23,331 nt of DNA from Octopus sinensis (taxonomy: Eukaryota). Below, piece by piece: positions 11,768 to 12,728 of the stretch. The translations under genes and the position numbers were made by a program. The DNA lies in NCBI RefSeq assembly GCF_006345805.1, contig NW_021836633.1, positions 1-23,331 of the forward strand, given 5' to 3'. The notes under the pieces were generated by a model, which saw only the letters and a list, made by a program, of their open reading frames with translations, did not search any database and was not told where the DNA came from. Within the stretch, counting starts at the first letter, position 1. Every line of letters starts with the position of its first letter.

Positions 11768-12164
11768 TGTGGTAAGTAGCTTGCTTACCAACCACATGGT
11801 TCCAGGTTCAGTCCCACTGCGTGGCACTTTGGGCAAGTGTCTTCTACTATTGTCTCGGGCCGACCAAAGCCTTGTAAGTGGATTTGGTAGGCGGAAACTG
11901 AAAGAAGCCCGTCGTATATATGTATATATATATATATATATGTGTGTTTGTGTCTGTTTCTGTGTCTGTGTTTGCCCCCCCCCCCAACATCGCTTGACAA
12001 CCGATGCTGGTGTGTTTACGTCCCCGTAACTTAGCGGTTCGGCAAAAGAGACCGATAGAATAAGTACTAGGCTTACAAAGAATAAGTCATGGGGTCGATT
12101 TGCTCGACTAAAGATGGTGCTCCAGCATGGCCGCAGTCAAATGACTGAAACAAGTAAAAGAGTA
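11768..12164 (+). mobile_element. CORE-like tRNA-derived SINE family A, nearly full length
   Basis: tRNA-like head with B-box GGTTCAGTCCC (11805-11815), a CORE-like segment ctgcgtggcactttgggcaagtgtctt, internal (TA)n(TG)n and a 3' tail ...gactgaaacaagtaaaagagta. Confidence 0.92.
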
Positions 12165-12182
12165 TATATATACATATAAGAC

Positions 12183-12247
12183 GAATGACCACTAGGTGGA
12201 CTCCTAATATGCATTTAGCATATTAGGAGTCCACCTAGTGGTCATTC
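12183..12247. repeat. Perfect 30-bp-stem hairpin with 5-nt loop
   Basis: gaatgaccactaggtggactcctaatatgc (12183-12212), loop attta, gcatattaggagtccacctagtggtcattc (12218-12247). It extends ~12 bp further with 2 mismatches. Confidence 0.97.
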
Positions 12248-12274
12248 TTCTTACATGTATGTATGCATATATAT

Positions 12275-12590
12275 ATAAAATGAAGAAACACTTTTTAAAA
12301 AAGTAATTAGCTATTTAAATTCTTTTTGAACTCACAGAATATCACCAACATTTGCGGACGTAATTTCTGAAGAGTGTATATTTTGTGTACAATATGTATT
12401 TCGTGTGCGAGCGCTTTCGGTGTTTAACTTTTCAAACACACATATTCCAGGTAAATTCCTAGGGAAGAAGTTGTTTTTAGTAATGGTGTTGAATATTACC
12501 GTTTTAATGTGGGATTTAGAATTCGTTTAACCTTTTTTTTTTTTGCTTTTCGCAGTCGGTCATTTTTATCTTTGATTTTGTAAAAGATGA
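12275..12590 (-). mobile_element. Short Penelope-like element 3' end (endonuclease C-terminus plus 3' region with hammerhead relic)
   Basis: The minus strand encodes IFYKIKDKNDRLRKAKKKKVKRILNPTLKR* (stop 12498-12496), resembling the PFYK...R..KE..I..LNPxLN C-terminus of PLE GIY-YIG domains. It is followed by GTGTTT-loop-AAACAC-C-GAAA-GCGC-TC. Confidence 0.6.
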
Positions 12591-12671
12591 TGGAGCACCA
12601 TCTTTAGTCGAGCAAATCGACCCCATGACTTATTCTTTGTAAGCCTAGTACTTATTCTATCGGTCTCTTTT
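12591..12671 (-). repeat. Exact 81-bp inverted duplication of 12044-12124 (part of the neighbouring SINE copy)
   Basis: Identical by eye, including the variants ccccATgac and caccATctt that the copies at 7766 and 10306 lack. Confidence 0.95.
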
Positions 12672-12728
12672 ATATATACATATAAGAGGAATGGCCACTA
12701 GGTGGACTCCTAATATGCATTTAGCATA
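12671..12728 (+). repeat. 58-bp direct duplication of 12165-12222
   Basis: tatatatacatataagaggaatggccactaggtggactcctaatatgcatttagcata, with 2 mismatches to the first copy. Confidence 0.95.

What the first reader, a model, noticed from the sequence alone, without database searches (positions are those of the whole stretch)
12044..12728. Miniature direct-inverted-direct triplication (snap-back template switching) with a Penelope end embedded in the inverted copy
Seen: the order is A(12044-12124)...B(12165-12222), inverted B (12218-~12265), PLE 3' end on the minus strand (12275-12590), inverted A (12591-12671), then B again (12671-12728). Inverted A carries variants private to the adjacent SINE copy, so it was copied locally rather than retrotransposed. 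B ends in a natural mini-hairpin, tatgc-attta-gcata, exactly where the fold-back starts. Inference: a 3' end at 12222 folded back, copied ~170 nt backwards, then switched back to ~12165. The PLE fragment replaces the ~40 nt corresponding to 12125-12164. This could record hairpin-primed synthesis coupled to PLE integration, or a DUP-TRP/INV-DUP-like repair event hit later by a PLE.
Basis: partly seen in the sequence, partly recalled or inferred. Interest (0 to 1): 0.75.

Follow-up and report, generated by a model that had tools for sequence, protein, structure and literature searches.

The report
Retrozyme hairpin with local repair patch
The three "B" copies are not host DNA but the end of a small ribozyme-carrying jumping repeat that forms a hairpin here beside an old Penelope fragment, and the backwards host piece plus the third copy are a 138-base patch copied from nearby, likely during a later DNA-break repair: a real but likely ordinary scar.

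Summary
The anatomy is real. The reading changes. B is the outer 38-44 nt of a dispersed 523-nt non-coding repeat (U) carrying a type I hammerhead motif. U usually inserts in TA runs as head-to-head pairs: 57 of 82 other insertion clusters. The "natural mini-hairpin" is the junction of two U arms. Its 21-mer occurs only twice in the genome, both here, so the third B was copied after the hairpin formed. The Penelope fragment is about 20% from its family majority, has no close sibling and is far older than the duplication (2/139 differences), so it is likely resident DNA. Best model: (1) U inserted between SINE tail and Penelope end, its short cDNA snapping back on itself; all 57 other pairs carry U's one-sided tail, this one does not. 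(2) Inverted A plus the third B were later templated locally into a break. No matching patch was found at 78 other U loci. Other notes of this scan already describe such two-armed hammerhead families in this genome. Low to modest interest.

The parts
11767..12162 (+). High-copy SINE-like repeat, 5' end clipped, ending in an AAAAGAG tail; host of segment A
   Evidence: 10/327 differences from the majority of 37-41 other copies; very high depth in all 4 runs; class name recalled
12044..12124 (+). A: template of the inverted host piece
   Evidence: 81/81 identical to 12591-12671 reversed; begins with AAAAGAG, which occurs in 11700-12800 (+) only at 12044 and 12156
12163..12212 (+). TA lead-in plus B1 = U positions 1-38 (shorter arm)
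12213..12217 (.). 5-nt loop of the arm junction; reads as U39-43 on the minus strand
   Evidence: junction 21-mer found only at 12199 and 12705 in the genome
12212..12263 (-). B2 = U positions 1-44 plus 8 nt of U's own lead-in (longer arm, likely the primary cDNA)
12264..12277 (.). TA run at the natural 3' end of the Penelope fragment; right half of U's target
   Evidence: sequence; relatives also end in TA/CA runs, three at this same short end
12278..12590 (-). Old Penelope-like 3' fragment (end of GIY-YIG ORF and 3' UTR), decayed, likely resident
   Evidence: 69-79% to the 41 other matches; 57/289 from majority; a 24-mer is unique at 1 mismatch; conserved EEYFI and LN motifs altered
12591..12671 (-). 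Inverted A: first half of the templated patch; 12587-12590 match both PLE and SINE at 3 of 4 bases
12671..12728 (+). B3: direct copy of 12165-12222 including the hairpin junction; second half of the patch
   Evidence: 56/58; carries the junction 21-mer; bridged to the right flank by contig X1-8
12729..12885 (+). GA-rich tract, right flank
   Evidence: flank beyond it is single-copy in the assembly

Best explanation
B is the end of a 523-nt hammerhead-motif repeat (U) that sits here as a head-to-head hairpin in a TA run between a SINE and an older Penelope fragment; the hairpin likely formed when a short U cDNA folded back on itself, and inverted A plus the third B were likely pasted in later as one locally templated repair patch. 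Step 1 (inferred): a Penelope-type enzyme primed U cDNA on the bottom strand at the TA run beside the resident fragment and stopped at about U44. The 3' end snapped back over a 5-nt loop, copied U38 back to the TA lead-in, and annealed to the TA run behind the SINE tail. Step 2 (inferred): at a break where the Penelope fragment met the GA tract, a strand was made from the SINE-plus-hairpin segment 370-550 nt away. It reads A backwards to 12044, then forwards from the base of the 47-bp palindrome (12165) to 5 nt past the loop, where the new strand can form its own 5-bp stem. It was captured with 1-4 nt microhomologies. Shown: what each piece is, its source, and the order (junction before B3; Penelope long before both). 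Nothing suggests a function.
For: B belongs to U: 44 matches, 99 matches to a 28-mer at up to 2 mismatches, unit map. U has a hammerhead core conserved in 39-43 of 43 copies per position with N7 freely variable; stems 90.6% paired vs 33-44% when slid. Head-to-head form in 57 of 82 other clusters. Near-symmetric junctions 9 of 44 vs 4.3 expected, p=0.016. The loop continues the tail-less arm in 13 of 16 other short-loop junctions, p=0.02, and the minus-strand arm here. B1 (5-nt lead-in, U1-38) is nested in B2 (8-nt lead-in, U1-44). Junction 21-mer only at B1 and B3. Age gap: PLE 57/289 vs patch 2/139, p about 1e-8. The patch resembles yeast double inverted insertions: two adjacent pieces of one locus, junctions 30-119 bp apart, 0-4 bp end microhomology (PMC11724301, abstract and section 19 read); here 121 nt.
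Against: No other of the 57 pairs lacks the tail (L009 was scored 'neither' only because its hit starts at U363; it contains the tail), so step 1 has no precedent in the sample. In 28 of 44 pairs the tail-less arm is the longer one and needs its own template, so two primings are the family norm. Lead-ins of 5 and 8 nt are both common (7 and 5 of 58), so the nesting argument is weak. B1 and B2 differ at 2 of 38 core sites. The internal invA-B3 microhomology is 1 nt (yeast median 6). B3 starts at U's own start site, as do two other junction-bearing copies (L129, L131), which fits RT re-copying. Dating cannot separate steps 1 and 2 (p=0.20). Stem covariation is weak (3 pairs with double changes; 14 of 500 shuffles reach the score). 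No autonomous partner of U was looked for.
Confidence: 0.55

Rival explanations
1. Same resident Penelope fragment and U hairpin, but the patch was made by the retroelement's reverse transcriptase. A read-through RNA running leftwards over the hairpin and SINE ended in the U-tract at 12044, primed copying at U's own start site on the same RNA, and the tail-to-tail product was inserted nearby.
For: B3 begins at the family start site. Junction-bearing truncated copies of other U composites lie 41 kb (L129/L130, 93%) and 2 kb (L131, 95-98%) from their partner without shared flanks, each beginning at or near one of the two start sites. [quoted passage not shown]
Against: Both pieces run outward from the middle, opposite to target-primed arms. 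L129 and L131 carry no inverted host flank. No second case of a near-identical inverted flank beside U in 78 loci (the one adjacent hit, L147, is 37 nt of another repeat 1.3 kb away). The start site is also a TA run and the palindrome base. No RNA data were examined.
Confidence: 0.2
2. The hairpin is an ordinary two-start insertion (each cut strand primed separately) whose 118-nt tail was never copied or was deleted between TA microhomologies; the patch is as in the best explanation.
For: Two start sites (U1 and about U406) mark nearly all pairs. PAc cuts and extends both strands and starts at two sites (PMC11167929, parts 1-2 of 4 read). B2 has a G at U2 that 4 other arms share. Shortened tails exist (starts at U427-476).
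Against: 0 of 57 other pairs lost the tail entirely (upper 95% bound about 5%); the 5-nt loop is the shortest of 17 short-loop junctions.
Confidence: 0.12
3. One reading: a single B with a ready-made mini-hairpin folded back at 12222, copied about 170 nt backwards and switched back to 12165; the Penelope end replaced the inverted 12125-12164 during or after this.
For: Economical geometry: inverted B and inverted A are in the order of one backward copy, and the Penelope fragment has its 3' end in a TA run and its truncated end exactly at inverted A.
Against: Needs a prior loop-inversion to create the hairpin (absent from U) and a young Penelope insertion or a donor. The fragment is decayed, 20% from its family and without sibling. 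B2's lead-in has 7 extra bases relative to B1's. About four events instead of two.
Confidence: 0.1
4. Assembly or chimeric-read artefact on a 23-kb unplaced contig.
For: The window is a whole small contig; three joints are not bridged by any listed contig.
Against: Each B copy has its own substitutions; short-read contigs cross B2-PLE, PLE-invA and B3-GA at depth 20-25 in X1, and B2-PLE in a second study.
Confidence: 0.03

Closest known systems
Insertion architecture of EN+ Penelope-like elements (Craig et al. 2021, PMC8557442, passages; Arkhipova et al. 2013, PMC3846280, passages and discussion; Frangieh et al. 2024, PMC11167929, parts 1-2 of 4)
   Same: U shows partial tandems, an inverted truncated copy, a tail at one end only, two fixed start points and TA targets; palindromic junctions were already read as self-priming in 2013.
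   Different: U's tail is about 118 nt (30-40 bp in print); U has no ORF; this copy has no tail on either arm; the order here (inverted, direct, body, inverted) is not the usual inverted-direct-body-direct.
Metazoan non-LTR retrozymes (Cervera and de la Pena 2020, PMC7229834, passages; Li et al. 2026 preprint 10.64898/2026.07.22.740005, abstract)
   Same: Non-coding repeat unit with a type I hammerhead motif, short stem III with a palindromic loop, and a U-U mismatch at the base of stem II as described for HHR_Amex2.
   Different: 523-nt unit with a long stem II; mostly dispersed head-to-head stubs; cleavage and circular RNA untested; the window copy holds only U1-44 and no ribozyme.
Double inverted templated insertions at breaks (Yu et al. 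2024, PMC11724301, abstract and section 19) and snap-back SD-MMEJ (PMC5728401, passages)
   Same: Two adjacent pieces of one locus joined in opposite orientation, short end microhomologies, similar size and junction spacing.
   Different: Donor is 0.4-0.55 kb from the site, not distant; internal microhomology only 1 nt; pieces much longer than typical SD-MMEJ inserts; seen as a fixed scar, not in a mutant.
DUP-TRP/INV-DUP (PMC11293582 and related; search listing and abstract starts only)
   Same: Direct-inverted-direct order of B with a duplicated neighbour.
   Different: Sub-kilobase; no pre-existing inverted repeat pair; five or six joints rather than two; the inverted part is not one continuous copy.

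Membership tests
U as non-autonomous Penelope-type element | Partial tandem copies of the terminal unit | tested here: met
   e.g. 1-523 then 1-58 in L005
U as non-autonomous Penelope-type element | Inverted truncated copy with a tail on one end only | tested here: met
   57 of 57 other head-to-head clusters (L009 read by hand); not met by the window's own pair
U as non-autonomous Penelope-type element | Preference for TA or other AT-rich microsatellite targets | tested here: met
   lead-ins of 58 tail-less arms are mostly TA/CA runs; no background rate computed
U as non-autonomous Penelope-type element | Shared terminus with an autonomous RT-EN element | not tested
   no search made; none of the 29 loci of the neighbouring PLE family carries a U end
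Non-LTR retrozyme (U) | Type I hammerhead core and three stems | tested here: met
   Rfam gave no hammerhead hit in 5 loci at E up to 5
Non-LTR retrozyme (U) | Self-cleavage and circular RNA | not tested
GIY-YIG Penelope-like element (12278-12590) | C-terminal GIY-YIG domain with CCHH-type motif | tested here: inconclusive
   relatives show CPQC..YIGET..H..H..EEYFI..LNP (motif recalled and per PMC8557442); Pfam no hit
GIY-YIG Penelope-like element (12278-12590) | Young enough to have caused the duplication | tested here: not met
DUP-TRP/INV-DUP | First switch at a pre-existing inverted repeat | tested here: not met
   the stem is absent from native U
DUP-TRP/INV-DUP | One continuous inverted segment, two junctions | tested here: not met
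   inverted B and inverted A are separated by about 325 nt of older DNA; 12125-12164 has no inverted copy
Templated insertion at a DNA break | Insert copied from nearby DNA with short microhomologies | tested here: met
   81/81 and 56/58 to sources within 550 nt; 1-4 nt at joints
Templated insertion at a DNA break | Dependence on a repair polymerase rather than an RT | not testable with these tools
   sequence alone cannot name the enzyme

The most novel reading that the evidence does not exclude
Penelope-type reverse transcriptase self-primes. The tail-less 5-nt-loop hairpin is a pure snap-back insertion that exposes a normally hidden step (the tail-less arm folds back, 13 of 16). The invA-B3 patch is a second self-primed product made on read-through RNA of the same locus, so finished head-to-head composites are re-copied locally (L129, L131) and can drag antisense host flank with them.
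Probability: 0.18. Interest if true: 0.6.

Novelty: new member of a known kind. Interest (0 to 1): 0.3.

Why it matters
As a locus it is a scar with no sign of function. Its value is as a mechanistic trace. How Penelope-type elements build inverted ends and tails is still open (PMC8557442, PMC11167929). The polarity seen in U, where the tail-less arm carries the loop, together with a pair that lacks the tail altogether, gives a testable prediction for the in vitro system: snap-back of a truncated cDNA primes the second strand. If local re-copying of composites is RT-driven, such elements would be a small source of local inversions.

Tried and rejected
Empty or second allele in the assembly: none; left flank best 84%, right flank unique. 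Young donor of the Penelope fragment: none (these searches give lower bounds). Recurrence of the hairpin junction elsewhere: none. General enrichment of inverted host flank beside U: not seen at 78 other loci. Rfam on 5 loci gave only sub-threshold microsatellite and hairpin hits. Pfam did not name the endonuclease. One search used a mis-registered structure and is discarded; one search replaces it. Runs X3, X6 and X15 gave partial or repeat-dominated cover; the stop of X2 and X3 contigs at 12496 lies in a conserved part of the PLE family and says nothing about alleles. Lead-in length does not separate primary from copied arms. No earlier scan note near this place or on the U sequence. Paper searches listed no description of this repeat family or locus; only the open library was searched, and no supplements or repeat libraries were read, so U may already be catalogued.

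Full report
Observation. The coordinates hold. A (12044-12124) and 12591-12671 are an 81/81 inverted pair. B1 (12165-12222) and B3 (12671-12728) are direct at 56/58. B1 and 12218-12264 form a 47-bp palindrome with a 5-nt loop that folds at -43.7 kcal/mol as DNA. The window is a whole 23-kb contig of a 2.7-Gb assembly. Its repeats look like those of an octopus (recalled; other scan notes say the same). Short-read contigs cross three of the six joints: X1 covers 12235-12616 and 12689-13050, and X2 from another study covers 12224-12496 exactly. The PLE-invA joint is crossed by only 26 nt. The hairpin centre, SINE-B1 and invA-B3 joints are not bridged in the listed pieces.

B is a repeat end. A search with B returned 44 matches; a 28-mer has 99 matches at up to 2 mismatches. 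They map to position 1 of a 523-nt unit, U, whose 92 sampled pieces lie a median 7% from their majority. On the strand opposite to B, U carries a type I hammerhead motif. Core bases are kept in 39-43 of 43 copies while N7 varies freely. Four helices pair in 90.6% of cells against 33-44% when slid, with weak covariation; Rfam did not call it. Among 78 other loci covering the sites, 57 of 82 insertion clusters are head-to-head. All 57 carry all or part of U406-523 on one arm (L009 corrected by hand; L129/L130 and the two L131 clusters are not independent). This is the tandem, inverted and one-sided-tail plan described for Penelope-like elements (PMC8557442, passages; PMC11167929, parts 1-2). This scan has noted the same plan for other hammerhead families in this genome, though not for this sequence.

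The mini-hairpin is a product. U continues TATGC-TAAATG. The window's plus strand reads U1-38 and then the reverse complement of U44 to U1, with one shared base. Native U25-55 does not fold. The junction 21-mer occurs twice in the genome, at 12199 and 12705. B3 therefore copies a junction that already existed on a template strand. B3 keeps the family base at U8 where B1 has changed, and has its own change at U14, as expected of a real duplication of some age.

How the hairpin arose. Near-symmetric junctions are enriched in U (9 of 44 vs 4.3 by permutation, p=0.016). In 16 other short-loop junctions the loop continues the tail-less arm 13 times (p=0.02); two of the three exceptions may be internal hairpins. 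Here the loop continues B2, B1 is nested inside B2, and neither arm has the tail. The simplest reading is that one short cDNA (B2) folded back, copied itself to the TA lead-in and annealed to the other target end. Against this, it has no precedent in 57 pairs, and 28 of 44 pairs need two templates, so a two-start insertion that lost its tail stays possible.

The Penelope fragment is older. It is the 3' end of a GIY-YIG family. Its 41 other matches are 69-79% identical. It differs from the family majority at 57 of 289 sites (others: median 13%), the conserved EEYFI and LN motifs are altered, and a 24-mer from it is unique at one mismatch. The SINE is 10/327 from its majority and the patch 2/139 from its sources. 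An O. vulgaris annotation also dates Penelope expansion (JC 0.2) before SINE expansion (JC 0.065) (PMC13282606, passages). None of 29 loci of this family has a U end nearby. So it was most likely already there, with its 3' end in the TA run that U then used. A donor missing from the assembly cannot be excluded.

The patch. The 138 nt between the Penelope fragment and the GA tract consist of A read backwards and then B1-plus-loop read forwards, joined tail to tail. The template points are 121 nt apart; joints show 3 of 4 matching bases, 1 base and about 2 bases. B3 starts at the base of the palindrome and stops where the new strand can form a 5-bp stem (-4.5 kcal/mol with flanks). A begins with the same 7-mer that precedes B1's TA run, which may have guided the switch; this is a post hoc remark. 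The whole resembles double inverted insertions captured at yeast breaks (PMC11724301, section 19). No comparable inverted-flank patch was found at the other 78 loci, so it is not a regular outcome of U insertion. However, two other composites have junction-bearing truncated copies 2 kb and 41 kb away that begin at or near U's start sites, which keeps an RT route open. Dating does not separate hairpin and patch (p=0.20).

Verdict. A real, layered scar: old Penelope end, SINE, an atypical U hairpin, then a local templated patch. It is not a miniature host-DNA triplication tied to the Penelope fragment's integration. Interest 0.3; new member of known kinds.

Noticed in passing
L129:1051-1325 and L130:1717-1996 (G000 C18, 41 kb apart): Two U composites share the same arm junction (57/124) at 93% identity with unrelated flanks; L129 starts at U1 in a TA-rich site and is truncated in the tail, like a re-copy of L130.
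   Followed up: partly
L131:1074-1311 and 3148-3539: Two inverted copies of one U composite 2 kb apart (95-98%), same junction; the shorter starts near U413 and sits between TAAGCAT direct repeats; the longer has another repeat inserted at the tail/U1 boundary.
   Followed up: partly
L130:1207-1292: Solo U2-86 arm 442 nt from a composite, 96% identical to its right arm, without TA lead-in.
   Followed up: partly
L080 and L146 (contigs C20, C6): Similar short-loop junctions near U78-87, each with an internal deletion in the tail arm: recurrent hot spot or re-mobilised composite.
   Followed up: no
window 10720-10851 and about 11358-11482; 11559-11630: A second head-to-head element upstream (132-nt inverted arms, 92%) with a hammerhead-like motif at 11559; the family has at least 45 other matches at 75-94%.
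   Followed up: partly
window 12525 and 12532: Run X1's contig has T for G at 12525 and one more T in the poly-T run, while X15 matches the assembly: polymorphism or assembly error.
   Followed up: no
window 167-1234 (+) and 9539-9865 (+): Open stretches that read like the RT C-terminal part of a LINE and the end of another non-LTR ORF (identification recalled).
   Followed up: no
window 10310-10718 (-): Another copy of the same SINE in opposite orientation, 5'-truncated at the edge of the upstream inverted element.
   Followed up: no
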